Assembly (NCBI GenBank): GCA_964544585.1
Contig: CAZJBV010000001.1
Span: 45,330-109,329, forward strand
DNA length: 64,000 nucleotides
Reading direction: 5' to 3'
Source: an uncultured Gammaproteobacteria bacterium
GTDB taxonomy: Bacteria; Patescibacteriota; Microgenomatia; 2-02-FULL-39-11
Below the pieces are notes generated by a model. It was given only the letters and a program-made list of their open reading frames with translations. It did not search any database and had not been told where the DNA came from. Every line of letters starts with the position of its first letter. Positions within the stretch are counted from its first letter, which is position 1. The position numbers and the translations under genes were made by a program. Below are positions 34,257 to 47,179 of the stretch, one piece after another.

Positions 34257-34285
34257 TTGTCAAGACAATCTTGAGGCTATATAAT
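34257..34285 (+). promoter_or_regulatory. Putative sigma70-like promoter for tRNA-Glu (TTGTCA-17-TATAAT)
   Basis: ggcTTGTCAagacaatcttgaggctaTATAATacc about 28 nt upstream of tRNA 5' end. Confidence 0.35.
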
Positions 34286-35915
34286 ACCTACTGAGGCTAA
34301 ATAAAAGCTTTTTGCCGCCATCGTCTAGTGGCCCAGGACGGTACCTTCTCAAGGTACAAATCGGGGGTTCGAATCCCCCTGGCGGTACCCAGTTCCGACT
34401 TGTCGGGGCCGCCCGCAGGGCGGCCCAAGGTTCGCGCGCGTTACCGCGCGCTATTTTGTGGTTGAGAGTCAGGTTCGAGCCGAAGATTTTTTGGGCCAAT
34501 ACCTTTTTCTGGTATAAATCATTGCCCCTTGCGATGTTTGCCGCGCTAGCGGCATCTATAACCCATGTCCGCATGGGTTCGAGCCAAGCATTTTGCGTTT
34601 GTTCAAATGTTTTTACTTTCTCTTCCAGCGTCTTCTTGATATTTAACAGTTCAGCTTTTTTAAAGCGGTACGTTTCTATATCAATTTCCTGATCCAAATA
34701 AGCATCTAGAAGACGCTGTAACTTGATATTAATATTTTCAATTTCCATTTTTTTCATTTGAACAAACGCTCGGCAGGATTGGGCAGTGTCTTTTTCTTCC
34801 TCTTTGAGTTTAACTAACATTCTATTTGCCCAATCCTGACGTAAAGAAACTTTTTGAATAAGGCTGGATAGCTGCCTATCCAGGACTTCTTCGCGAATAT
34901 AAAGTTCGCGGCAAGAAATTGTTTTGGATTTTTTGGTACACCTATAATAAGTATGGCCTTTTTGAATTTCAGCTGTAATCATCATGCCGCAACTACTGCA
35001 GCGAAGAAGCCGGGCAAATGGTTTGGGGATTCTTCCCTTGTCTTTGATATGTTGGGGCTTACTCCTGTCTTTCAAAACCATTTGCACTTTATCAAAAAGT
35101 TTCTTGGAAATGATGGGCTCGTGGATTCCCTCGTATAATTCTCCACCAAACCGAAAGAAACCGACATAAAACGGGTCGGAAAGTACATATTTAATTCTGT
35201 CTTTATGAAGAGGCTTGTTACCTCTTGAGAAAATACCATGACGAGCCAAAAAGTCAGATATATCTTCAAGTCTTGATTCATTTTGGGCATAGATACCAAA
35301 TGCAAGGGAAATGTAGGGTGATTTAAATTTATCAACTACAATTTTCTTAGTCCTGACATTATTTAGATACCCGATGGGTGCCAGACTGGGAAATTCTCCT
35401 TTTCTTACTTTTTGGCGAAGTCCTCTTTTGGTATTTTCAGAGAGGGAATCCACATAGTACTTACTTTGCCCAAACGCAATATTGAGCATAAATTTACCCT
35501 GCGGAGTGGATTCAAACCAGAATTGGGGAAATTTGAGAAACTTGATTTTACCAGTATCAACTAGATAAATAATCCTTCCTCCATCTATACTATTGCGCGC
35601 AAGTCTATCCGGATGCCAAGCCAAGATACCGGCGGCTTCACCTTTTTCAATTCTCTCAATCATAGAATTGAAAACAGGACGGCCGGGAATCTTGGCCGAT
35701 TGTTTCTCAATAAGTTCCTCAATAATGGAAATTGACTCACGTTTGGCAAATTCCCTAAGCTCCGTAATCTGTGCCTCGATAGATAATACCTGTTTATCCT
35801 CTGTATCTGTAGACTTGCGCGCATACAAAAATAATTTTTGCAGAGTTGGTAATTGAGATCTTAAATACTCTTTTGGAGGTCTTGTTATGAGATTGTTGGC
35901 AGGAGTGGTAATCAT
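34260..35915 (-). CDS. Large serine recombinase (resolvase/invertase catalytic domain + recombinase domain + zinc ribbon + coiled coil); 3' end as drawn reads through inverted repeat and antisense tRNA
   Basis: YARKSTDTEDKQ...SIEAQ catalytic Ser region, zinc ribbon CSSCGMM...YYRCTKK, long coiled coil; C-terminal ~70 aa are Ala/Arg/Pro/Gly-rich translation of GC-rich IR and tRNA antisense, so true C-terminus uncertain. Confidence 0.75.
   Translation of the reverse strand: MITTPANNLITRPPKEYLRSQLPTLQKLFLYARKSTDTEDKQVLSIEAQITELREFAKRESISIIEELIEKQSAKIPGRPVFNSMIERIEKGEAAGILAWHPDRLARNSIDGGRIIYLVDTGKIKFLKFPQFWFESTPQGKFMLNIAFGQSKYYVDSLSENTKRGLRQKVRKGEFPSLAPIGYLNNVRTKKIVVDKFKSPYISLAFGIYAQNESRLEDISDFLARHGIFSRGNKPLHKDRIKYVLSDPFYVGFFRFGGELYEGIHEPIISKKLFDKVQMVLKDRSKPQHIKDKGRIPKPFARLLRCSSCGMMITAEIQKGHTYYRCTKKSKTISCRELYIREEVLDRQLSSLIQKVSLRQDWANRMLVKLKEEEKDTAQSCRAFVQMKKMEIENINIKLQRLLDAYLDQEIDIETYRFKKAELLNIKKTLEEKVKTFEQTQNAWLEPMRTWVIDAASAANIARGNDLYQKKVLAQKIFGSNLTLNHKIARGNAREPWAALRAAPTSRNWVPPGGFEPPICTLRRYRPGPLDDGGKKLLFSLSRYYIASRLS
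34314..34387 (+). tRNA. tRNA-Glu (anticodon CUC)
   Basis: Cloverleaf readable: acceptor GCCGCCA/UGGCGGU, D-arm TCGTCTAGTGGCCCAGGACG, anticodon stem GTACC/GGTAC with loop TTCTCAA (CTC), T-arm GGGGGTTCGAATCCCCC; CCA not encoded. Confidence 0.85.
34386..34485. repeat. IR1 left copy: ~100-bp GC-rich inverted repeat starting at the tRNA-Glu discriminator base
   Basis: acccagttccgacttgtcggggccgcccgcagggcggcccaaggttcgcgcgcgttaccgcgcgctattttgtggttgagagtca... reverse-complement of 36106..36200; contains internal palindromes GGCCGCCCGCAGGGCGGCC and GCGCGCGTTACCGCGCGC. Confidence 0.9.
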
Positions 35916-36105
35916 GAGCTAAGGAGTACTATACTTTTTCCTTCAAAATTTTCAATATGACTTAATGAATCAAACATAAGCAAAAAATTCTTTTTGTTCG
36001 TTTGCACGTAAAAAATGCTGATGCATTTTTCAGTGTAAAGGCAAAGTTTCCCCCACTATTTAGTGGGGGACAAATAACATCGCAAGGGGCAATTAATTAA
36101 AATTC

Positions 36106-36200
36106 TTCGGCTCATGACTCTCAACCACAAAATAGCGCGCGGTAACGCGCGCGAACCTTGGGCCGCCCTGCGGGCGGCCCCGACAAGTCGGAACTGGGTA
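36106..36200. repeat. IR1 right copy (inverted), abutting IR2
   Basis: Reverse complement matches 34386..34471 perfectly, then 4-5-nt indel, then gagccgaag matches again. Confidence 0.9.
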
Positions 36201-36387
36201 AGCCTTTACAGTTACGCTCGAAACTATTTTATAAATAATTCTTAGTATTATAAATAAAATGTTGCGATGAGGAAAAGGGGTAAAGGGGAAAAGGAATCAT
36301 CGCAACATAAACCTTATTGCTCGGCCGCTTCGCGGCCTCGCATTATCCCAGGCCTCTCCTTCTCATTCTCTCTTTGGGAAATTTTCG
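36199..36387. repeat. IR2 left copy: ~190-bp inverted repeat bounding the cargo module
   Basis: Reverse-complement of 45440..45629 essentially perfect over ~190 bp; internal palindromes (gttgcgatga...tcatcgcaac; GGCCGCTTCGCGGCC). Confidence 0.9.
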
Positions 36388-36569
36388 AAATTTTTTAAAG
36401 CCTTCTTATAGGTCGCTAACGAGAATATTTATTAGAAAAAGGAGAATATTTTGTCAGAAATATCATGAAAATAGCAAAATACTAGCTACCATATAAAACT
36501 GTCAACAAACGCATAGCTTCATAATTATTTTTACTGTCTTTATCTTTCCAAAGTTTTTCGGTCATAAAA

Positions 36570-39500
36570 TCAACTGGCATTATTTTTAAGCCATGTTTGT
36601 TTAAAGTCGTAGTATTTAGGATTTCTCTCCATGAGCCCAGCAAACAATTTTTCTACTTGCTCTTTGTGGGTTTTAATAGAAGTTAAGTATTCGACTGCAA
36701 CATCAAGGTCGTTTGCAATTAACAGATCAGTTGGATAATCAACGAGTTTTTTAAACCAACGTAAAAATTCTTGGTTGCCTTTTACCTGCGCAATTTTTAC
36801 CAATATTTTTCCATTATAGAAGAATGGCCACCAATACATGTCAGGAAGATTATCTTTAGTATAGTTATCTTTAAAATACTGATACTCCGTTTCAATACAT
36901 TTCTTCCAAAGGTCAAAACACACATCAAAATGTTCTTCAATATAATCCTCAACAAAACGATAGATATTCTCAAAAGTCCTGTGGTCGTAGGTTACTGTCA
37001 TATACTCAAGATAATAAGCGGCGAGTTTTACAGCATCTTCAAACTTCGGTGTATCTTTTACCTCATGGGGTATACGTACCATTTGCCAAGCAAAAATTTG
37101 CTTAATTTCTGGATCACCACTTTTTACCAGACTAATCAATAATTTCTTAAAGGGTCTGTCATCAAACTTTCCTAGTGGTTCCCAGTCCTTTGGCCAGTCC
37201 TTGAAAGATTGTATTCTGTATTCAGCAAAAAATATGTATAATGGTGCTGCTTCGCTTAATACATCTGCTAAATATGATTCATGTCCTCTTTGTTTGTCTT
37301 TTTTAGGATACTCATTTTTAAGAAATATTTGTAAAACTTCAAATGCCTTCTTTTGATCTATACTTCTCATGTAAGTAAACACCATCGCCAAATGTTTCAT
37401 AATGGCAGGTAATTCGTGATTAACCAAATCACGTAGCATCAAAAAAGCTAAATCCTCTATTTTCTTAGAAATTTCAACTTGCAGAAATCTCTCTTTTCTA
37501 TTATCTGGAAGCACAGTGTTACGATTTTTTACTAACTCTAAAAGGGGAATACAAGATTGTAATCGTACATAATAATTTTTATCCTTAGTTAGCTTTTCAA
37601 CTAGAGGTAGAATTGCAGGTATATGTTTTCTTCCATAAAGAGTCGCAAATTTTTGTAAAACCCACGCGCAGTAACCTCTGACAGAACCAATTGATAAGTC
37701 ATCTTCACCGCCTATAATTTTTTGATGTCTATTAAAATTACCTTCTGGATCATCAAAGTAATTCTCAAGTATAGGATCGCTATCTTTTATAAAAATATTT
37801 AGTATGTAAAGAGTCTCATCAAACAATTTTACTTCGGCCAGTTTTTCAGCAAACTGTACAATTTGCTCTCTTGAGTGTCGGTTCGTAATTCTTTCTTCAG
37901 TTTTTGATATGTCATCGCCTAGGTTTTGTAAGAACGGGTATACAAAATCTTTATAAACCCCTTGGATTACTTCTTTGTTTTCTTTTGGTAAATCGTTTAT
38001 TGAACTGCAAATTAGAATTTGTTGATTTAATGTAAGAGTTCTTGAAGAGCCCACTTCTTTTAAAATGCTTACTCCAATACCCAGGTTTTTGACTATAATC
38101 TTGGCAAGATTTTTAGCCACCTCCCATGTCTCCCAATCGTCATCCTTCTTAACAAATTCATCGCTTGTGATGTAACTTATAAAAATCTTAACACCCTCAT
38201 CAAAAGTTTCTGGATTATCTAAAAGTTTAGAGATATTACCCATTACATTAAACGAACCTATGGTTTGTCTTTTGTGATATTCGGGATTCGTTATCCAGCT
38301 TGCGATAATAGCAGCTGCTTCTTTGTGCCTTTCTGCCGCCAAATCTGAAGTTATTTGCTCAACAAAAACGTTAGCCGATAAATTATTATATTCATCAAGA
38401 CTGACTTTTATTAGCGCCCACTTTTGCTCTTTTGTATAATCACCTCTCAATTCTTGGAATATTAAGTCTGCTTTCCATGGAATACCTTTTCTCATTCTTA
38501 CGAAGTCGCTTAAAATGTCAAAGGCTTCGGAGCTATGTTTACCACCTTTATATTCTGCAAAAATAACTGGAATTGAAGCACGATTGAGGAAATCTGGCTT
38601 ATTACTAGAAACATCACTTATTTTCCTAGCTATACAATTTTTGATAATAAACTTCCAATTCTTTTCACTATTTTTGTATAGTTCTTGCAAAGCTGGTCTG
38701 ATAATGTATCTTACAAAGTGGTTGTCTAAGATCGAAAAATTACTACCTGATTGAGAAATTCCGCTACCTGCTAAATCCCATCCATCAAACTTCCATTTCA
38801 AGCGAAACCTACCATAAAAATTATTGTAATGCTTCACACAAAGCTCTTTAAACCAAATAATCCTTTCTTCCGGATTTTCTATTACATAATCTCTAAAAAT
38901 CTCGAAAATAGCGGTAGGGGTATAATGCCAGTACTCCCCATGATCTTCTATAAGATTGAAAGTTTTACTTAGGTATTCAATAATTTCTTCTTTAAGTTTT
39001 CTATCTTTTGTATCTTGATATAGTTTTGTTAATAATTTACTAATTTTCTCTCTTTCCCATTTATCGTCTCTATGTCTTGATTTTTTTTCGGTATAGAAAA
39101 AGTCACTGATACTCGGACTAAATAATTTCTTAATCACTTCAAAAACTTTGCGATTAAGCTTAGGATTTACATCTAAAATTTTTTGACACAGTCGTGCAAT
39201 ATCAGTTTTGATAAATTCTTCTCTAAAGAAGTTGTAACTTCCGTCTTCCAGCACTTTATCTGCAAAATCCAGCGAGTATTCTTGATTATCTTTTGTAGGT
39301 AAGTTGTTTTCAAATATTTGAAATAGGTGCACAGAAAATGCGCTCTTAACTGTAGCCTCCCATAGATTATCCCATTGACTTAAATTTAAGTTTTGCTTGT
39401 CTTTGAGTCTCATCAACGCGTAGTAAAATTCCGAAGGGAGATTAGAAAGTTCAGAAATCTTATTGTTAGCCCATTTTTTCTTCTCTGGATTTTCTATAGC

Positions 39501-40178
39501 TTCAATAAGCCCTTTGATGTCTTTTTCGGCAGTTTGTCTCTCTTTTTCATAACCTGCGTCTTCAAGTATTTGAGTTTTTCTTTTATCTAGTTTCTTCAAA
39601 AAAACCTCGGCTGTTAAAGTCTTCCCTGCTGCCGATCCATCGTACACTTCCTGTTTAACAAGATGATCTCTTATTTCCTCCAGTGTATGTTTTGGGACCC
39701 AAACCTGAAGAAGTTTTGCGACTAAAAGCTCTACTATTTTTTCACTCATTTCTTTTGGAACCTCCCAAATTTTTAACTGTGCCAAAAGTTCAAAATGATA
39801 ATCTTTAAAATTGTGTGGTTTTTTGGCGAGCCTCTCTCTTACTCGATCTTGAAAGTATTTATAATTTTCAATATCGTTCTTAGCAGATCTATTTACCCCT
39901 TTGCAAATAATCACTATTTCATCCTGTTTGGTTACTTGGCCGTGCTCGTGAATTTTATCGAGAATATCTCTAATATCTGCGTAGTTTAAAATTGAGTCTT
40001 TTGATTCACAAATTATTTTTCGGCCATCCTCAAAGACCAAATAAAAATCTTCAAGCTTGTCACCTTCAAAACCAATATATCTAAAATCTGAACGTTTAAC
40101 ATATTGAAGAAACAGCGACATAGCTGCCCAAGCTTGGGCATTAACTCCTTTAACGTTATATTGACCCTGCTTACTCAT
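36570..40178 (-). CDS. 1202-aa protein: N-terminal restriction-endonuclease-like (PD-(D/E)xK) domain followed by ~1000 aa of alpha-helical (HEAT/ARM-like) repeats
   Basis: N-terminal LEDFYLVFEDGRKIICESKD (D...ExK); remainder helical repeat composition (e.g. LPLVEKLTKDKNYYVRLQSCIPLLELV); start overlaps stop of upstream 209-aa gene (ATGA). Confidence 0.5.
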   Translation of the reverse strand: MSKQGQYNVKGVNAQAWAAMSLFLQYVKRSDFRYIGFEGDKLEDFYLVFEDGRKIICESKDSILNYADIRDILDKIHEHGQVTKQDEIVIICKGVNRSAKNDIENYKYFQDRVRERLAKKPHNFKDYHFELLAQLKIWEVPKEMSEKIVELLVAKLLQVWVPKHTLEEIRDHLVKQEVYDGSAAGKTLTAEVFLKKLDKRKTQILEDAGYEKERQTAEKDIKGLIEAIENPEKKKWANNKISELSNLPSEFYYALMRLKDKQNLNLSQWDNLWEATVKSAFSVHLFQIFENNLPTKDNQEYSLDFADKVLEDGSYNFFREEFIKTDIARLCQKILDVNPKLNRKVFEVIKKLFSPSISDFFYTEKKSRHRDDKWEREKISKLLTKLYQDTKDRKLKEEIIEYLSKTFNLIEDHGEYWHYTPTAIFEIFRDYVIENPEERIIWFKELCVKHYNNFYGRFRLKWKFDGWDLAGSGISQSGSNFSILDNHFVRYIIRPALQELYKNSEKNWKFIIKNCIARKISDVSSNKPDFLNRASIPVIFAEYKGGKHSSEAFDILSDFVRMRKGIPWKADLIFQELRGDYTKEQKWALIKVSLDEYNNLSANVFVEQITSDLAAERHKEAAAIIASWITNPEYHKRQTIGSFNVMGNISKLLDNPETFDEGVKIFISYITSDEFVKKDDDWETWEVAKNLAKIIVKNLGIGVSILKEVGSSRTLTLNQQILICSSINDLPKENKEVIQGVYKDFVYPFLQNLGDDISKTEERITNRHSREQIVQFAEKLAEVKLFDETLYILNIFIKDSDPILENYFDDPEGNFNRHQKIIGGEDDLSIGSVRGYCAWVLQKFATLYGRKHIPAILPLVEKLTKDKNYYVRLQSCIPLLELVKNRNTVLPDNRKERFLQVEISKKIEDLAFLMLRDLVNHELPAIMKHLAMVFTYMRSIDQKKAFEVLQIFLKNEYPKKDKQRGHESYLADVLSEAAPLYIFFAEYRIQSFKDWPKDWEPLGKFDDRPFKKLLISLVKSGDPEIKQIFAWQMVRIPHEVKDTPKFEDAVKLAAYYLEYMTVTYDHRTFENIYRFVEDYIEEHFDVCFDLWKKCIETEYQYFKDNYTKDNLPDMYWWPFFYNGKILVKIAQVKGNQEFLRWFKKLVDYPTDLLIANDLDVAVEYLTSIKTHKEQVEKLFAGLMERNPKYYDFKQTWLKNNAS

Positions 40179-42780: not shown

Positions 42781-43227
42781 TTAAGAGATATTTTTACTGT
42801 AAATAATATAATCCTGATGGTCATGATGATTGAAATGTTCTCCGGTTTTTACAAACCCGAGAGATTCATAAAACTTGGATGTTCTTTTAGTTTTTGAAGT
42901 ATTGAGAAATATTTTATGGGCTTTGAGTGATTGAGCTATCTTTATAGCTTCTTTTACAAGTTCGGTTCCAATACCCTGTCTGTGCTTTTCGTGTTTCACG
43001 ATTAGGCTTTCAATTCTGACTACTCCTGCCATGAGAGATAATTCTAAAAAACCTACCATTGTCCCGTTTTCTGTTGCTTTTAGAATCTTTCTTTGCTTTG
43101 TCCAATCTATTTTGGTACCAAACTCCTCCAGGTCTGCCAGTGCCCATTCTTTCTTTTGAAATTCTTCTATCTCTTTGGTGGTTTGATTGATTTCCTGTAT
43201 GGATATCATATGTTTTGTTTTGACCAA
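42781..43227 (-). CDS. GNAT-family N-acetyltransferase
   Basis: Acetyl-CoA binding motif HRQGIGTELV and GNAT fold length (148 aa). Confidence 0.75.
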   Translation of the reverse strand: MVKTKHMISIQEINQTTKEIEEFQKKEWALADLEEFGTKIDWTKQRKILKATENGTMVGFLELSLMAGVVRIESLIVKHEKHRQGIGTELVKEAIKIAQSLKAHKIFLNTSKTKRTSKFYESLGFVKTGEHFNHHDHQDYIIYSKNIS

Positions 43228-43766
43228 ATTCCTAACTTTTTTGATTTTGCTTCTTTTTCTGCAGATAATAATTGTTGCTGATAAATAAGTGGTTTTCTTT
43301 TTTCGTATATTGTAACTTTGGCTAATCCTCTTTTTGCCAACTCAATCGCAAGATTTTTGTCACTAATAATAATGTATGCAAGAATTCTTCCGAATCTGTC
43401 TGATTTATACTCATCGTATTCAATATTTACTTTTTTTCCTTCAACGAGTCTTTTAGCAAATTCTGTAGACTCTTCATCAAAAGGTTGTCCGTGATCCGGA
43501 GTATTTACTCCGACAAGTCGGACGATTTGTCCGTTTTGTAATTCGAGAGTATCCCCATCTATGACTCTTTTGATTTTGGCTTCTTTGGGAAACTCTATGA
43601 CTTGACTGGAGTTTATAATAGGCTGGTTTTCAATCGCATCTTTAATCTCACTTTCATACTTAGTCCCTGCAAAAAATGAGGAGAATGATAAAAGCAGGGC
43701 AAGAGGAATAAGGACATATTTGTTTTTATTTGACTTTTTGTTTTGGGGTTTGGATTTTGGTTTCAT
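43206..43766 (-). CDS. Thermonuclease / staphylococcal nuclease (SNase) homolog, secreted
   Basis: N-terminal signal anchor; SNase core VIDGDTLEL...VRLVGVNTPD...RFGRILAYI. Confidence 0.75.
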   Translation of the reverse strand: MKPKSKPQNKKSNKNKYVLIPLALLLSFSSFFAGTKYESEIKDAIENQPIINSSQVIEFPKEAKIKRVIDGDTLELQNGQIVRLVGVNTPDHGQPFDEESTEFAKRLVEGKKVNIEYDEYKSDRFGRILAYIIISDKNLAIELAKRGLAKVTIYEKRKPLIYQQQLLSAEKEAKSKKLGIWSKQNI

Positions 43767-44853
43767 AAAGTGTATTTTGCCCCACCTCGAATACCCTGTT
43801 GTTTGAGTAATCCCTTCTTTTCCAGTTCAGTCAGATAGTTAGTGGCAGTGCTTTGAGATACTCGACATAATCTTTGCACATCGGTGTTGGTTATGGTTCC
43901 CGTTTCTTTGATAAAGAGCATGATTTTATCTAAGTTTTTCTGTCTTTTGTTGAGTCTTTTTGCGTTGGCTTTCTGGCGAAGAGAGGATATGCCTTCCTTC
44001 GCTGAAGCTTCGGCGGCTAAAGGAGATTGGGGTAATGGGGGAGATGGGGGAATTTGGGGAGTAACCGCAGGAGATGGCTTCGGTGGGACGATGGGTTCTA
44101 TATTTATTTTTGGTTCATCCTGCAGGGACTGGTCTAATTGGGAGGGAGAGGTGTTTCCATGCAAGATATCTCCAAACGAAGATGGCTTGGGAAGAATAGA
44201 AGGAGCAGAAGAAATAGGAGGATTTGATGAAGATGGCGGATTTTCTTTCGCTAGGATCTCGCCGAAAGAGCTTTTGGGAGAGGTGGGAGGCTTAATTTCT
44301 TCTGTTTTTTGAGAATTGCCATTGGCCAATGGAGCGTTCTGGACTGGTTTTGGTGGCTCAGTCTTGATATTGGCCAAGTCGGGAGGAACTTGAAATGTTG
44401 TATTTATAGATGCACTATCTGACGGGCCGGATTGCACTTGAGACGGTGCAATTGGAGTAGTAGTGACAGAAACGGGAGGTGTAGAAATGTCGTTAGGAGA
44501 TGAAGGAGATTGGGGTAATGGGGGAGATATGGGAGAGTCGGAATCGTCCGATGAGGACGGATTGGCCAGATTGGAGGAAGATGTAATCTCGGTGGGTTTC
44601 GGCTCAATCGATGGTGGAGCAACATGGCCAGAATCCGTAGCCGTCTGATTGGTCAAGTCTGGATGAGCCGAACTATTATTGGCCAATGGAGTTTCTACTG
44701 ATTGGCCAGATGTTGATGCTTCCTTGGGAGCCTCATTGGCCATTTTGGTGGAAATTGGCCAAGTGGGATCAGATGTATTGGCCAATTGTGAATCGGCCAG
44801 CTTATCCTGAACTTGGCCAATAATACTTCCTTGCTGGAACTGATCATCAGCCA
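43763..44853 (-). CDS. Pro/Ser-rich low-complexity protein with C-terminal winged-helix DNA-binding domain
   Basis: Likely start MADDQF (44853) rather than ORF-track start; C-terminus ITNTDVQRLCRVSQSTATNYLTELEKKGLLKQQG is wHTH-like; internal ~30-bp direct repeats encode PISPPLPQSP repeats. Confidence 0.45.
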
Positions 44854-44975
44854 TATTAAATCCAGTATACAACAAAGTAAATGGCCAAGTGATTGGCCAA
44901 CACAAAAAGCAACATGGCCATTTTGGTGGAAATTGGCCAAGTGGAAAAAATAATTGGCCAAGTAATAATCGCCAG
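44680..44975. repeat. Dense cluster of ~13 ATTGGCCAA (TGGCCA palindrome) motifs incl. a 28-bp direct repeat
   Basis: TGGCCA occurs about 13 times in ~300 bp spanning the 5' end/upstream region of the wHTH gene; ccattttggtggaaattggccaagtgg repeated at 44738 and 44917. Confidence 0.8.
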
Positions 44976-44999
44976 TGGTCACCCACCCGTGCAATGCTC

Positions 45000-45420
45000 T
45001 CATGATGACACCGATGGAATACAAAGAGGGGTCATCGCACGGGGGGTGAAGGAATTTCTCCCCCGAGTGCCACGGGCACACCGGAAGCACGGGGTAGGGG
45101 GACCCCCGTGAGTGCAAACCCAGAGGACGAAGTCCGACTGGATGCACGAACGGAGGGAGACCCCCCGTGGGAAGTGATTGGAAAATACCTCTGAGGGAAC
45201 CAGGCTCTATAGCACTACGGGCACGGCAGGGGGTACGTGCGAAAAACCTATGACCTGATATAACAGAGAAACTCTCACAGTCTCCAAAAGCGAACCCCAC
45301 TGGCGACATATATAAATGTATATTTGGGAGTACCTTGTTGTTGTCCGCGGATGGGATGGGTGCCCATAAAAAATCGCTGAGGCGATTTTTCAGGGTAAAG
45401 GCCAAGGACAACTACAAATA
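45000..45420. other. GC-rich, hairpin-dense, apparently non-coding ~400-nt region (candidate structured RNA or cis-acting DNA site) ending in a bidirectional terminator-like hairpin
   Basis: Local GC far above window average; many stable stem-loops (GTGCCACGGGCAC; CACGGGG...CCCCGTG; GTGCA...CCAG..GGACGAAGTCC..CTGG..TGCAC); overlapping ORFs have implausible Pro/Gly/Trp/His/Cys-rich composition; aaaatcgctgaggcgatttt hairpin at about 45370-45395. Confidence 0.35.
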
Positions 45421-45439
45421 ATTTCCCCTTACCTTATAA

Positions 45440-45629
45440 CGAAAATTTCCCAAAGAGAGAATGAGAAGGAGAGGCCTGGGATAATGCGAGGCCGCGAAGC
45501 GGCCGAGCAATAAGGTTTATGTTGCGATGATTCCTTTTCCCCTTTACCCCTTTTCCTCATCGCAACATTTTATTTATAATACTAAGAATTATTTATAAAA
45601 TAGTTTCGAGCGTAACTGTAAAGGCTTAC
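45440..45629. repeat. IR2 right copy (inverted)
   Basis: cgaaaatttcccaaagagagaatgagaaggagaggcctggg...tagtttcgagcgtaactgtaaaggcttac is the reverse complement of 36199..36387. Confidence 0.9.
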
Positions 45630-47179
45630 AAAGTCTCTGCGTCTCTTTTAGTTATAACCGTAAATTTATAGGGGCTAGATTTGTTTGAAAAGTAGGCAGT
45701 ATTGGGTAATTGTTCAATATCCTGACCAAAATAGTACTTTAAAATCAAGCGAAAAGTATTTACTGGAGTTATTTCTGGGTATATTAGTTTATCCCCTCCG
45801 AGAGGTAAGTAATAAGCATTGAGGATGGCCATTTTTTGTCTCTTTTCTTCTTCTGTTGCATTTTTCCAATCAAAATTCAGTTCACCTTTTCTGTATGCTT
45901 CCGGGTATGGTCCTTCATCGCCCTGAATAATTATAATGGGTGGATTTTCTTTTGATTTTTCCATGATCGTGTTTACCAATTCCTGTATTTTTTTATTGGC
46001 GAATACTATTTGTTCCTCATAGTTTCTTTTTTCACTTCTTTTATCCGTTTCCTCCTGACTTAAGCAATTTCCATCTTTGTCAAAGACATATGGTTCATGC
46101 GTTAGGAGAAAATGAGCAAATGTAAACGTAGGTTTTGAAATATCAGGCACTTTGGCAATTTCGTCAAACTTGTAGTAAGGTCTTTTGCAGTGAGTGAGCC
46201 GGCTATTAAAAAGCGGGATATTTAGCTTTATTGTAAGTGGATGAAATAATGATTTGCTATACACAATCTCTGAAAACTCAGAGAGCGAAGGCAAATTAAT
46301 ATTTTTATCTGCATTTCTATTCCAGGCCGTTGGACCCCACCATGAGCCGGCATGGATATAGAGATAACCATTTGATTTTAGAAATCTTAAGACAGAATAA
46401 TCCTCAATAAGATCAATAAGGGGTCTAATATCATCTGATTGTCTACCTAAAGATTTTATTAGATCGTCATGATATTCCATATTCAAAGATGAGGATAATG
46501 ATAATTGAGTTTGGGTATAATTTGCCCATGATTTTTGGGGAATAGAAAAATTGCTATCCTGTAGAAACTTTATAAATTGAGAATTGTCAAACTGGTACAC
46601 ATTTTCTAAAATATCGCTTCTTCCATAACGGTCGAATACAAAATAGTAAATATCAGGAGGATTTTTCTGATTTGAGCTGGTCACCTGCCAGGTATATGTT
46701 TTTTCATTCACAGCATAATTCAAAGAATATAATATGTCATATTTTATTATTTCGAAAAGAGATGGAATTAAGAGTGCAATTCCAATAAAGTTAGATATCA
46801 GCATTATCGATATTAGATTGGATTTACTCTTAAGGATTAGGTAGCTTGTTAAGAAAATTATTGCTATTGCAGCAATAAAACCAGGGGTTTGTTTTCCTTG
46901 GAGAAGACTATCTAAAGGTGACTGCCGAAGCAAATCAAAAATATGCCCGTAGCTTAGAATGACTAGTGCTGAGAGGGAAACAATAAGTGATGATTTATAA
47001 ATATTCTTTATAAATATATTCAGAAGAGCAAAGACAAACAAGGTACAGGCCACAATAAAAAATAGAGGCAAAAAAATGCCTGAAATGTGAATTCCTGTAA
47101 TGTTGTGGCTGTAGATAAAAAAGATAGGATAGGAAGAAATAAGAATGGGAAGGAGGATGGGAAATAAATTTTTTCTCAT
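45626..47179 (-). CDS. Membrane-anchored sulfatase/alkaline-phosphatase-superfamily protein (LTA synthase / phosphotransferase-like)
   Basis: N-terminal ~5 TM helices; extracytoplasmic sulfatase-like domain (YYFVFDRYGRSD...); 517 aa. Confidence 0.55.
   Translation of the reverse strand: MRKNLFPILLPILISSYPIFFIYSHNITGIHISGIFLPLFFIVACTLFVFALLNIFIKNIYKSSLIVSLSALVILSYGHIFDLLRQSPLDSLLQGKQTPGFIAAIAIIFLTSYLILKSKSNLISIMLISNFIGIALLIPSLFEIIKYDILYSLNYAVNEKTYTWQVTSSNQKNPPDIYYFVFDRYGRSDILENVYQFDNSQFIKFLQDSNFSIPQKSWANYTQTQLSLSSSLNMEYHDDLIKSLGRQSDDIRPLIDLIEDYSVLRFLKSNGYLYIHAGSWWGPTAWNRNADKNINLPSLSEFSEIVYSKSLFHPLTIKLNIPLFNSRLTHCKRPYYKFDEIAKVPDISKPTFTFAHFLLTHEPYVFDKDGNCLSQEETDKRSEKRNYEEQIVFANKKIQELVNTIMEKSKENPPIIIIQGDEGPYPEAYRKGELNFDWKNATEEEKRQKMAILNAYYLPLGGDKLIYPEITPVNTFRLILKYYFGQDIEQLPNTAYFSNKSSPYKFTVITKRDAETL

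What the first reader, a model, noticed from the sequence alone, without database searches (positions are those of the whole stretch)
44680..44975. Iteron-like cluster of ~13 ATTGGCCAA palindromes at the 5' end of a winged-helix gene
Sequence: TGGCCA occurs about 13 times in 300 bp (the expectation in AT-rich DNA is well under 1), with a 28-bp direct repeat (ccattttggtggaaattggccaagtgg, twice). The cluster spans the promoter and N-terminal coding region of a Pro/Ser-rich protein whose C-terminus is a winged-helix DNA-binding domain. Inference: these could be binding sites for that protein (autoregulation) or an iteron-type replication or partition origin of the element.
Basis: partly seen in the sequence, partly recalled or inferred. 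Interest (0 to 1): 0.55.

Follow-up and report, generated by a model that had tools for sequence, protein, structure and literature searches.

The report
Operator-site array inside a regulator's own gene
A DNA-binding regulator gene of an uncultured groundwater bacterium (Candidatus Gottesmanbacteria) carries 16 copies of one short palindromic DNA site in its promoter and in the first half of its own coding sequence. Comparison with relatives shows these are DNA-level binding sites, most likely for the protein itself, and not a peptide repeat or a replication origin.

Summary
The cluster is real. There are 15 TGGCCA plus one TCGGCCA in 638 bp (44323-44960), where about 0.13 are expected; 11 lie in the stated interval, not 13. 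It sits on a minus-strand gene (44854..43763) for a 363-aa protein with about 280 disordered Pro/Ser-rich residues and a C-terminal winged helix. Five sites are upstream of the ATG. Eleven are in codons 1-178, in all three frames (LAN, GQ/GH, WP).

Orthologues keep the array. Codons in the sites are frozen while neighbouring synonymous codons drift. One site keeps its position but changes frame. Other clades carry TGGCCGAT or TCGGCCGA instead, in both orientations.

Across Microgenomates the ancestral state is one palindromic box near the family gene. The box has two GGCC cores 19 bp apart and occurs nowhere else in 312 kb examined. Gottesmanbacteria multiplied the half-site into the disorder-coding region.

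Best reading: an autoregulatory operator array bound by the gene's own product (inferred, not shown). The iteron, partition-origin and peptide-repeat readings are not supported. The locus is chromosomal, with no Rep or Par genes.

Also noticed: a conserved, covariation-supported 410-590 nt structured RNA lies next to the gene in relatives. It has no Rfam match.

The parts
43763..44854 (-). Gene for the 363-aa protein P0001. About 280 residues are intrinsically disordered and Pro/Ser/Thr/Gln-rich, followed by a long helix and a C-terminal winged helix (residues 283-363, invariant VSQSTATNYL).
   Evidence: ORF; Pfam HTH_24/MarR; AF2 models; homologues annotated Candidatus Gottesmanbacteria.
44882..44960 (.). 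Upstream, non-coding array of five TGGCCA sites at 44955, 44934, 44915, 44894 and 44882, i.e. -106, -85, -66, -45 and -33 from the ATG. Spacings are 21, 19, 21 and 12 bp.
   Evidence: The same five-site pattern and spacing occurs in L001, L004 and L005. The upstream frame is not conserved, and in-frame stops lie 2-4 codons before the ATG in L006, L007, L010, L014 and L036.
44915..44944 (.). Promoter copy of the 30-bp box (gene-sense CCACTTGGCCAATTTCCACCAAAATGGCCA). Two GGCC cores lie 19 bp apart around a CCACC centre. This is the ancestral palindromic operator of the family.
   Evidence: Exact repeat D5. The box is present at the family gene in all lineages with enough sequence and nowhere else in 312 kb. 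Its orientation relative to the gene flips between lineages.
44737..44766 (.). Intragenic copy of the same 30-bp box, 178 bp downstream of the promoter copy. It is read as the peptide PTWPISTKMAN.
   Evidence: The equivalent second box occurs at +73 to +123 in L001, L002, L004, L005, L006, L007, L018 and L035.
44323..44819 (.). Intragenic array of 10 TGGCCA sites (44814, 44779, 44756, 44737, 44703, 44680, 44625, 44563, 44371, 44323) plus the variant TCGGCCA at 44793-44799. The sites fall in all three reading frames: LAN/MAN x6, GQ/GH x3, WP x1, LAD x1. The pair at +478/+526 is conserved across clades.
44864..44869 (-). Conserved -10-like hexamer TATACT, 9 nt before the ATG, with no Shine-Dalgarno sequence. 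This implies a leaderless or near-leaderless mRNA. GTATACTGGATTTA is invariant in clade A.
   Evidence: This is an inference from sequence only; the transcription start site has not been mapped.
43206..43766 (-). SNase-family (thermonuclease-like) gene with an N-terminal membrane anchor. Its start overlaps the regulator's stop, so it is probably the co-transcribed and regulated cargo.
   Evidence: Pfam SNase 4e-23; NCBIfam NucI-like. The wHTH-SNase synteny holds in L001, L004, L005, L006, L007 and L035.
44970..45306 (-). GC-rich (about 58%) element of about 340 nt immediately upstream of the array. It is closed by the 10-bp helix TCGCCAGTGG/CCACTGGCGA. It occupies the position that a conserved structured RNA holds in relatives.
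   Evidence: MFE -151 kcal/mol, z -5.7. No Rfam match. Not detectably homologous to the relatives' RNA by an nhmmer profile.

Best explanation
The cluster is an array of double-stranded-DNA binding sites with consensus AAT-Y-GGCC-R-ATT (TTGGCCAA in this clade). The most likely binder is the winged-helix protein encoded by the same gene, which would make the array an extended autoregulatory operator.

The ancestral unit is one palindromic box at the promoter, with two GGCC cores 19 bp apart around a G/C-rich centre. In Gottesmanbacteria the box was duplicated into the coding region, about 180-220 bp downstream. Single half-sites then multiplied to 12-17 copies across the promoter and the first ~530 bp of the coding sequence. 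That stretch encodes a disordered segment that tolerates the imposed codons (LAN, GQ, WP, or LAD/ESAS in other clades).

The inferred mechanism has three parts:
- Protein bound at the upstream sites overlaps or abuts the -35 region of a leaderless promoter.
- Protein bound at the intragenic sites cooperates with it by looping or oligomerisation, with sites mostly about two helical turns apart.
- Together they shut off, or tightly buffer, transcription of the regulator-SNase operon.

Shown: the DNA-level constraint, the cis-association with the gene family, the ancestry from a single box, and the wHTH fold. Inferred: that this protein is the binder, that the effect is repression, and that looping or cooperativity is involved.
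For: 1. Enrichment is local. Fifteen of 26 TGGCCA lie in 638 bp and the rest of the window is at chance level. Only 2 of 38 YGGCCR sites elsewhere fit 10 or more of the 12 consensus positions.

2. Five sites are non-coding. The upstream frame and stop codons are inconsistent between loci.

3. Intragenic sites use all three frames. In clade B the asymmetric 12-mer ACTGGCCGATTC occurs in both orientations, read as LADS and as ESAS.

4. The codons are frozen. LAN is TTGGCCAAT in 4 of 5 cases and CTGGCCAAT in 1 of 5, where codon usage predicts a frequency of 0.03. Among five orthologues, 7 of 9 same-residue columns inside sites keep identical codons, against 11 of 70 outside (Fisher p = 3e-4). L005 keeps ATTGGCCAA at one aligned position but in another frame, IGQ instead of LAN.

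5. The array is conserved in orthologues that are 55-63% identical, with the same upstream spacing.

6. The motif varies by clade around an invariant GGCC core: TTGGCCAA, TGGCCGAT, TCGGCCGA.

7. A single box sits at the promoter in distant family members. Its orientation relative to the gene flips (CCACC versus GGTGG centre), as expected for a double-stranded DNA site.

8. Every one of the 50 boxes found in 312 kb is at a family gene.

9. The C-terminal domain is a confident wHTH. Its nearest folds are operator-binding repressors: ROK Lmo0178, MarR/BpsR, and the autoregulator Stf76.
Against:
- The recognition helix (VSQSTATNYL) is invariant while the bases flanking GGCC change between clades. 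There is therefore no protein-DNA co-variation to tie this protein to the site.
- An 8-12 bp palindrome is short for a classical wHTH dimer, so the stoichiometry is unclear.
- Pairwise distances between sites show no strong 10.5-bp phasing (vector strength 0.07-0.14). The spacing between the two boxes is not an integral number of helical turns across loci.
- Three distant relatives with upstream sequence (L016, L026, L032) have no box.
- In the M23-peptidase subfamily the box lies about 700 bp upstream, beyond a structured RNA, and not at the gene's own promoter.
- More than ten sites is far more than simple autorepression needs.
Confidence: 0.58

Rival explanations
1. The sites are the same, possibly with the same binder, but the purpose differs. 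The array would be a nucleation or centromere-like platform, comparable to parS within or near parB, tubC with TubR, or the pNOB8 AspA site. On it the disordered-tail wHTH protein would build a large nucleoprotein complex used for chromosome organisation, segregation or anchoring. Autoregulation would be a side effect.
For: There are 12-17 sites per locus, more than a promoter switch needs. Most adjacent sites are 19-23 bp apart, which puts them on the same DNA face. The long disordered tail carries conserved short motifs (SFGD[IL]L twice, EPxINIEPI) that could recruit partners. A wHTH centromere-binding protein (AspA, 4rs8) and a chromatin protein (TrmBL2) are among the fold matches. One MAG carries two paralogous modules with the same motif.
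Against: No partition NTPase is adjacent in any of about 30 loci. Most family members have just one box, which looks like an ordinary operator. The fold matches are generic, with E of 3e-3 to 2e-2.
Confidence: 0.15
2. The sites are read by a different trans-acting factor, or they serve the neighbouring structured RNA gene (its termination, processing or promoter) and not the wHTH gene.
For: In the M23-peptidase subfamily the box lies upstream of the RNA, just after a TATAAT, and not at the gene's own promoter. The recognition helix does not co-vary with the flanking bases.
Against: Loci without the RNA (L033, L036, L022, L029, L010, L012) still carry boxes or arrays. The box is never seen away from a family gene in 312 kb. 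The array extends 530 bp into the coding sequence, pointing away from the RNA.
Confidence: 0.1
3. The motif acts at the RNA or single-strand level. Self-complementary UUGGCCAA copies, or forward and reverse 12-mers in clade B, would pair to form hairpins such as the box with a UUUCCACCA loop, controlling mRNA stability or translation.
For: The box is an inverted repeat. The changes on its two arms between clades A, B and C are complementary: TTGGCCA/TGGCCAA, TCGGCCA/TGGCCGA, TCGGCCGG/CCGGCCGA. The centre of the box is conserved.
Against: The box is found in both orientations relative to transcription (CCACC versus GGTGG centre), which would change the RNA loop. The inner arms are not complementary in L010, L011, L014 and L017, and the outer arms are not complementary in L033. 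The upstream sites lie before the conserved -10 and would not be transcribed from it. The same sequence, not just complementarity, is conserved at every site.
Confidence: 0.05
4. The cluster is an iteron-type replication origin or partition site of an episomal or integrated element.
For: Many repeats lie next to a wHTH gene. Some spacings of 19-23 bp resemble iteron periodicity. Serine recombinases lie near some loci: the L005 upstream neighbour, L002 downstream, and 10 kb away in the window.
Against: The context is chromosomal housekeeping genes. There is no Rep_3, DnaA or Par hit. There is no GC-skew turn at the site. The protein has no plasmid or phage relatives. The module is conserved in many genomes with different flanks. 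The sites are palindromic 8-12-mers, partly inverted, and not tandem 17-22-mers.
Confidence: 0.03
5. It is only a peptide repeat (PLAN / TWPISTKMAN) whose codons happen to spell the motif.
For: PLA[ND] and T[WR]PxSTxxA[ND] are conserved as peptides across clades. Several repeats are spaced in multiples of 21 bp, i.e. 7 codons.
Against: There are non-coding copies. The sites use three frames and both orientations. Synonymous positions are frozen. One site shifts frame at a fixed position. Distant members have the box only in the promoter.
Confidence: 0.02

Closest known systems
Autoregulated MarR-type / small wHTH repressors with palindromic operators in their own promoter (e.g. MarR, ROK repressor Lmo0178, Stf76 of pSSVx)
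   Same: The fold is a winged helix (Pfam HTH_24/MarR above cut-off; these proteins are the Foldseek top hits). A palindromic operator sits next to the gene's own -10 region. Negative autoregulation is the likely logic.
   Different: The domain is a 75-residue C-terminal module behind about 280 disordered residues, or behind an M23 peptidase domain in a sister subfamily. It is not a ~140-aa MarR dimer. The operator half-site is multiplied to 16 copies, 11 of them inside the coding sequence.
Promoter-flanking operator pairs that repress by DNA looping (gal OE/OI with OI inside galE; lac O1/O2 with O2 inside lacZ). Named from general knowledge, not tested here.
   Same: An identical operator box lies upstream of the promoter and again 140-220 bp downstream inside the first gene. 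Auxiliary intragenic sites are present.
   Different: Here the intragenic operator lies in the regulator's own gene. It is accompanied by about nine further half-sites and has visibly shaped the protein sequence. No helical phasing between the two boxes is conserved.
Centromere-like repeat arrays bound by small DNA-binding proteins (parC/ParR, tubC/TubR, the pNOB8 AspA site, parS within spo0J/parB). Named from general knowledge; AspA also appears.
   Same: Multiple short sites are clustered at or in the gene of the binding protein. The binder is a wHTH in the case of TubR and AspA. Autoregulation is coupled to complex formation.
   Different: There is no partner NTPase. The locus is chromosomal. 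Most family members have a single box.
Iteron origins of theta plasmids (RepA, pi, TrfA)
   Same: Repeats lie next to a wHTH-encoding gene, and some spacings are about 21 bp.
   Different: There is no Rep_3-type two-wHTH initiator, no tandem 17-22 bp direct repeats, no plasmid context and no AT-rich unwinding element. The sites lie inside a coding sequence.

Membership tests
Winged-helix (HTH_24 / MarR-like) DNA-binding domain | Sequence match to the domain model above the curated threshold | tested here: met
   PF13412 HTH_24 scores 25.8 bits against a cut-off of 21.9. PF01047 MarR scores 25.7 against 24.6. Both match residues 310-351.
Winged-helix (HTH_24 / MarR-like) DNA-binding domain | H1-S1-H2-H3-S2-wing-S3 fold | tested here: met
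   The AF2 domain model has pLDDT 91.3 with elements H2-28, E30-32, H33-40, H44-56, E61-64, E70-72. Foldseek top hits are ROK and MarR repressors and Stf76.
MarR family proper (full-length ~140-aa dimeric regulator) | N- and C-terminal helices forming the dimer interface around the wHTH; whole-protein match | tested here: not met
   Only 41 residues of the 59-position model match. The domain is C-terminal, after about 280 disordered residues. PDB sequence hits are marginal, with E >= 0.017.
Autoregulatory operator | Palindromic site at the regulator's own promoter, conserved across relatives | tested here: met
   A box with two GGCC cores lies 20-60 bp upstream of the -10/ATG in the window, L001-L007, L010-L012, L014, L017, L018, L022, L027, L029 and L035.
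Autoregulatory operator | The gene product binds the site and changes transcription | not testable with these tools
   Needs EMSA, footprinting or a reporter assay.
Iteron-type replication origin | Adjacent Rep initiator (Rep_3-type, two wHTH domains) | tested here: not met
   Pfam and NCBIfam give only a single generic wHTH and no Rep family.
Iteron-type replication origin | Tandem direct repeats of 17-22 bp in one orientation | tested here: not met
   The sites are 8-12 bp palindromes. Spacings are 12-68 bp within the main cluster 44625-44960, with larger gaps further into the gene. The only long repeat is the 30-bp box, present twice 178 bp apart.
Iteron-type replication origin | Episomal or mobile context, or a replication signature | tested here: not met
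   SecA, LysRS and LytR-CpsA-Psr lie in the window. There is no GC-skew turn at 44-45 kb. The protein has no plasmid or phage relatives.
Partition centromere (parS / parC / tubC) | Adjacent partition NTPase (ParA, ParM or TubZ) | tested here: not met
   The neighbours are SNase, GNAT, a small membrane protein and a sulfatase-like protein. No such NTPase appears in the related loci.
Partition centromere (parS / parC / tubC) | Clustered repeats bound cooperatively by the centromere-binding protein | tested here: inconclusive
   Clustered repeats are present. Binding and cooperativity are untested. The fold similarity to AspA is only generic.
Peptide tandem repeat (codon repeat) | The motif is confined to one reading frame of the coding sequence, with free synonymous variation | tested here: not met
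   The sites use three frames and both orientations, include non-coding copies, and have frozen codons.
Known RNA families (Rfam 15), for the adjacent GC-rich element | Covariance-model match | tested here: not met
   No hit at gathering threshold or at E <= 10 in the window or in 12 related loci.

The most novel reading that the evidence does not exclude
The disordered-tail wHTH protein, the GGCC-site array embedded in its own gene and the adjacent unclassified ~500-nt structured RNA together form a previously undescribed self-nucleating module of Microgenomates. In this reading the gene body itself is the assembly platform: a centromere- or condensate-like locus, or an RNA-protein-DNA switch controlling an extracellular nuclease. 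The regulatory DNA code has overwritten about a tenth of the protein's disordered region.
Probability: 0.15. Interest if true: 0.8.

Novelty: new variant of a known kind. Interest (0 to 1): 0.58.

Why it matters
- It is an unusually clean natural case of two codes in one stretch of DNA. A transcription-factor site array has colonised the factor's own coding region, in all three frames. It has dictated recurring peptides (LAN, TWPISTKMAN, LADS/ESAS) in a disordered domain. This shows how disordered regions can act as free space for regulatory DNA.
- It gives an uncharacterised regulator family, found across the Microgenomates lineages sampled here, a predicted operator (AAT-Y-GGCC-R-ATT; box with GGCC-N15-GGCC), a predicted leaderless promoter and a likely target operon (an SNase nuclease). 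These predictions can be tested with synthetic DNA even though the organisms are uncultured.
- It also exposes a conserved large structured RNA with no Rfam family next to the same gene.

Tried and rejected
- Rfam searches of the window and 12 loci, at gathering threshold and at E <= 10, gave nothing for the GC-rich neighbour. ARAGORN found only tRNA-Glu.
- An nhmmer profile of the relatives' RNA did not find the window's element, so homology is not shown.
- The PDB sequence search gave only marginal wHTH hits, including FtsK-gamma at E = 0.07. Foldseek matches are generic wHTH and do not discriminate repressor from centromere binder.
- The metagenome scan with P0001 returned only 3 loci, two of them the already known P0003 type.
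- Literature searches for the motif, for intragenic auto-operators and for Microgenomates RNAs found nothing relevant.
- A test for helical phasing of the sites found no clear 10.5-bp periodicity.
- I considered that the upstream sites are translated from the GTG at 44986. I rejected this because frames and stops differ between loci.
- I considered a DnaA-box reading of the TTTCCACCA spacer. I rejected it because other lineages have CGCCC, GGGCG or CCCACCG there.
- I considered an R-M site bias (YGGCCR is the EaeI/CfrI-type specificity, from general knowledge). I rejected it because the motif is at chance level outside the locus.
- The simple promoter scan gave no convincing -35/-10 pair. The leaderless promoter is inferred from conservation only.
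Full report
**1. Observation**

TGGCCA occurs 26 times in the window, against 12.6 +/- 3.7 in shuffles. Fifteen of these lie between 44323 and 44960, and the other 11 are scattered at chance density. Four more sites lie further into the gene, and a variant TCGGCCA is at 44793-44799. Nine of the window's ten perfect TTGGCCAA are here. The direct repeat is exact over 30 bp: 44737-44766 = 44915-44944.

**2. The gene**

The sites sit on a minus-strand gene, 44854..43763. It encodes a 363-aa protein that a source annotates as Candidatus Gottesmanbacteria (P0001).
- Pfam finds a winged helix at residues 310-351, above the curated cut-offs.
- An AF2 model of the last 73 residues has pLDDT 91 and shows a long helix followed by a canonical wHTH.
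- The full-length model has no secondary structure and pLDDT of about 40-60 for residues 1 to about 280.
- The stop codon overlaps the start of an SNase-family nuclease gene that has a membrane anchor.
- The window is chromosomal: SecA, class I LysRS and LytR-CpsA-Psr are present.

**3. DNA motif or peptide repeat?**

Five sites lie upstream of the ATG at -106, -85, -66, -45 and -33. That region is not coding. In relatives the upstream frame differs from locus to locus, and in-frame stops lie 2-4 codons before the ATG in five loci.

Inside the gene the sites fall in all three frames: TTG GCC AAT = LAN, GGC CAA = GQ, TGG CCA = WP.

Codon usage in the rest of the window predicts TTGGCCAAT for only 3% of LAN tripeptides. 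In this gene 4 of 5 use it, and the fifth is CTGGCCAAT.

In a codon alignment of five orthologues, columns with the same residue keep identical codons in 7 of 9 cases inside sites. Outside sites the figure is 11 of 70 (p = 3e-4).

At one aligned position L005 keeps ATTGGCCAA but reads it as IGQ, where the others read LAN.

The constraint is on the DNA.

**4. Relatives**

Orthologous loci that are 55-63% identical carry the same array: L001, L002/L003, L004, L005 and L035. They have 3-5 upstream sites with the same 21/19/21/12 spacing and 8-14 intragenic sites. Positions +478 and +526 are conserved in L001, L002 and L004, and the equivalent 48-bp pair lies further in (at +691/+739 and +857/+905) in L005 and L035. 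These loci have almost no TGGCCA elsewhere.

A second clade (L006, L007, L018) has the asymmetric ACTGGCCGATTC instead. It occurs in both orientations within the coding sequence, read as LADS and as ESAS, with 3-4 copies upstream.

A third clade (L034, L036) has TCGGCCGA. L033 has a mixture.

Aligned on GGCC, all clades give AAT-Y-GGCC-R-ATT.

**5. Ancestral state**

Twenty-two further loci from Microgenomates (Beckwith-, Ames-, Woese- and Gottesmanbacteria) show that the family is broad. Levybacteria is represented by the protein hit P0039. All proteins start MADD/MSD. They end in a wHTH with VSQSTATNYL, which is invariant or changed at a single position in nearly all members; the most divergent, P0038, reads LPQSTLTDYF. 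In between they have either a disordered region or an M23 peptidase domain.

Most members have a single box. Two GGCC cores lie 19 bp apart, with A/T-rich inner flanks and a G/C-rich centre (CCACC, CGCCC, GGGCG). The box lies 20-60 bp upstream of a conserved -10-like hexamer. That hexamer (TATACT, TACACT or TACAAT) lies 4-9 nt before the ATG with no Shine-Dalgarno sequence. This suggests a leaderless mRNA, which is an inference.

The orientation of the box relative to the gene flips between lineages. This is expected for a double-stranded DNA site and not for an RNA element.

A regular-expression scan of all 312 kb held found 50 boxes. Every one is at a family gene.

The window's 30-bp repeat is this box. 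One copy is at the promoter. A second copy lies 178 bp downstream inside the gene and is read as PTWPISTKMAN. The same duplication is seen in the other array-bearing loci.

The Gottesmanbacteria array is therefore a lineage-specific expansion of an ordinary promoter operator into DNA that encodes a disordered region.

**6. Mechanism**

The simplest reading is that the gene's own wHTH protein binds these sites and autoregulates the regulator-SNase operon. The upstream sites overlap or abut the -35 region. The two boxes bracket the promoter. Adjacent sites are most often 19-23 bp apart (54 of 189 gaps). These features fit cooperative binding or looping.

This is inference; nothing here shows binding. 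Several points limit confidence:
- The recognition helix does not vary while the bases flanking GGCC do.
- There is no clear 10.5-bp phasing.
- In the M23 subfamily the box lies about 700 bp upstream, beyond a structured RNA and just after a TATAAT.
- Three distant relatives lack a box.

**7. Rivals**

- A partition- or centromere-like platform is not excluded but lacks a partner NTPase.
- An iteron origin is contradicted by the chromosomal context, the absence of Rep, the absence of plasmid or phage relatives, the flat GC skew at the site and the nature of the repeats.
- An RNA-hairpin role is unlikely because of the orientation flips and the non-complementary arms in several loci.

**8. Comparison with known systems**

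The domain is a generic MarR/ROK-like wHTH. The protein is not a MarR-family member in architecture.

The system works like an autoregulated repressor with auxiliary intragenic operators, as in gal and lac looping. It has centromere-like multiplicity.

I found no description of it in the searchable literature. I rate it a new variant of a known kind.

**9. The neighbouring RNA**

In 13 related loci a 410-590 nt GC-rich element lies on the same strand, directly upstream of the promoter. Its predicted fold has 47 pairs in 8 helices. Of the cells, 92% are paired, against about 50% in slid controls. Twenty pairs show compensatory changes, against 5-7 in slid controls, and 0 of 500 shuffles reach the observed values. 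Many G-U pairs fix the strand. It has no Rfam match.

The window has a 340-nt GC-rich, strongly folding element in the same place, 44970-45306 on the minus strand (z = -5.7). Profile search does not show it to be homologous.

One MAG, GCA_016186845.1, carries both P0001 and the paralogue P0002. The P0002 locus has the typical RNA.

Noticed in passing
L001:5283-5870, L002:5417-5905, L004:94-538, L005:5282-5871, L035:3383-3928, L018:2486-3015, L027:2233-2771, L009:462-935, L011:2127-2537, L019:2555-3044, L020:2553-3006, L021:1227-1697, L025:2542-3016 (all + strand): A conserved 410-590 nt GC-rich structured RNA lies directly upstream of the wHTH gene on the same strand. It starts ..ACCCACCCACCC..GGCGGCGACCCC and ends ..CCCTCCTTTTTAGC..GGCGGGGGCGGCGGAGCCGCCAAC. 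The fold has 8 helices and 47 pairs, 20 of them with compensatory changes, and 0 of 500 shuffles reach the observed values; G-U pairs fix the strand. There is no Rfam 15 match even at E <= 10. It may be an undescribed RNA class of Microgenomates.
   Followed up: partly
window 44970-45306 (- strand): A 340-nt element with 58% GC in a 37% GC genome is closed by the 10-bp helix TCGCCAGTGG/CCACTGGCGA. MFE is -151 kcal/mol, z -5.7. It occupies the slot of the relatives' RNA but is not detectably homologous by nhmmer and has no Rfam hit. Just upstream, the sequence CCCAAATATACATTTATATATG resembles the promoter-plus-ATG of the M23 subfamily. The element could be a replaced or remodelled RNA, or an insertion.
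   Followed up: partly
window 45519-45568, and 45420-45470 (- strand sense): A hairpin has a 12-bp stem that co-varies between the window (GCGATGA/TCATCGC) and L001 (GTAGCAA/TTGCTAC). Its loop, GGAAAAGGGGUAAAGGGGAAAAGGAA, is conserved and purine-rich. A conserved block, TTTGGGAAATTTTCGTTATAAGGTAAGGGGAAA, is shared with L001, L004 and L005. The function is unknown. It may be a 5' extension or the promoter region of the RNA.
   Followed up: no
window 45364-45395: A bidirectional terminator-like hairpin, AAAAATCGC-TGAG-GCGATTTTT, has a T-run on the minus strand. It lies between the upstream conserved block and the GC-rich element. The M23-subfamily loci have an analogous terminator (CCGGCGG..CCGCCGGTTTTTTT) between the far-upstream box and the RNA.
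   Followed up: no
L009:260, L019:2382, L020:2352, L021:1026, L025:2350: In the subfamily whose middle domain is an M23 peptidase, the palindromic box AATCGGCCAAAATGGTGGAAATTGGCCGATTC is not at the gene's promoter. It lies about 700 bp upstream, immediately after a TATAAT and before the structured RNA. These proteins show no N-terminal signal peptide on inspection of their sequences, although M23 domains normally act outside the cell.
   Followed up: partly
L037 (GCA_016186845.1 contig 15) and L001 (same assembly, contig 17): The same MAG holds two paralogous wHTH-SNase modules, P0001 and P0002, which are 63% identical. Both have TTGGCCAA arrays, so cross-binding would be expected. A chimeric bin cannot be excluded.
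   Followed up: no
window 45581-45645: These 65 bp are present in the window but absent from the otherwise 100% identical contig L037. The indel is at the 3' end of the sulfatase-like gene, which is 517 aa in the window and 514 aa in L037.
   Followed up: no
window 43763-44854 (protein residues ~195-235 and 245-260): The disordered region carries real peptide-level motifs that are conserved across clades without any DNA motif: SFG[DE][IL]L twice, EP[KT]INIEPI.PPKP and PSQVQ. They are probably partner-binding short linear motifs.
   Followed up: no
L006:783, L007:667, L012, L018, L033:4003, L035:4003, L036:3917 (start codons): The family-wide N-terminus MAD(D) is encoded as ATGGCCGAT in many loci, which is itself a half-site lying on the start codon and the presumed transcription start. 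The window has ATGGCTGAT, one base off.
   Followed up: no
L032:2460-2973: A distant relative has no GGCC box. Instead it carries three copies of a different 31-43 nt repeat, CTTGCCACGCCGAAACAAAGTGAAGGCGGG (peptide LATPKQSEGG), in its disorder-coding region. This may be a parallel case with another operator.
   Followed up: no
window 34260-40178: A large serine recombinase ORF (34260-35915, minus strand) overlaps a tRNA-Glu gene (34313-34391, plus strand). It is followed by a 1202-aa ORF with no Pfam match. The cumulative GC skew dips across 24-40 kb. This may be an integrated element. It is unrelated to the motif cluster.
   Followed up: no
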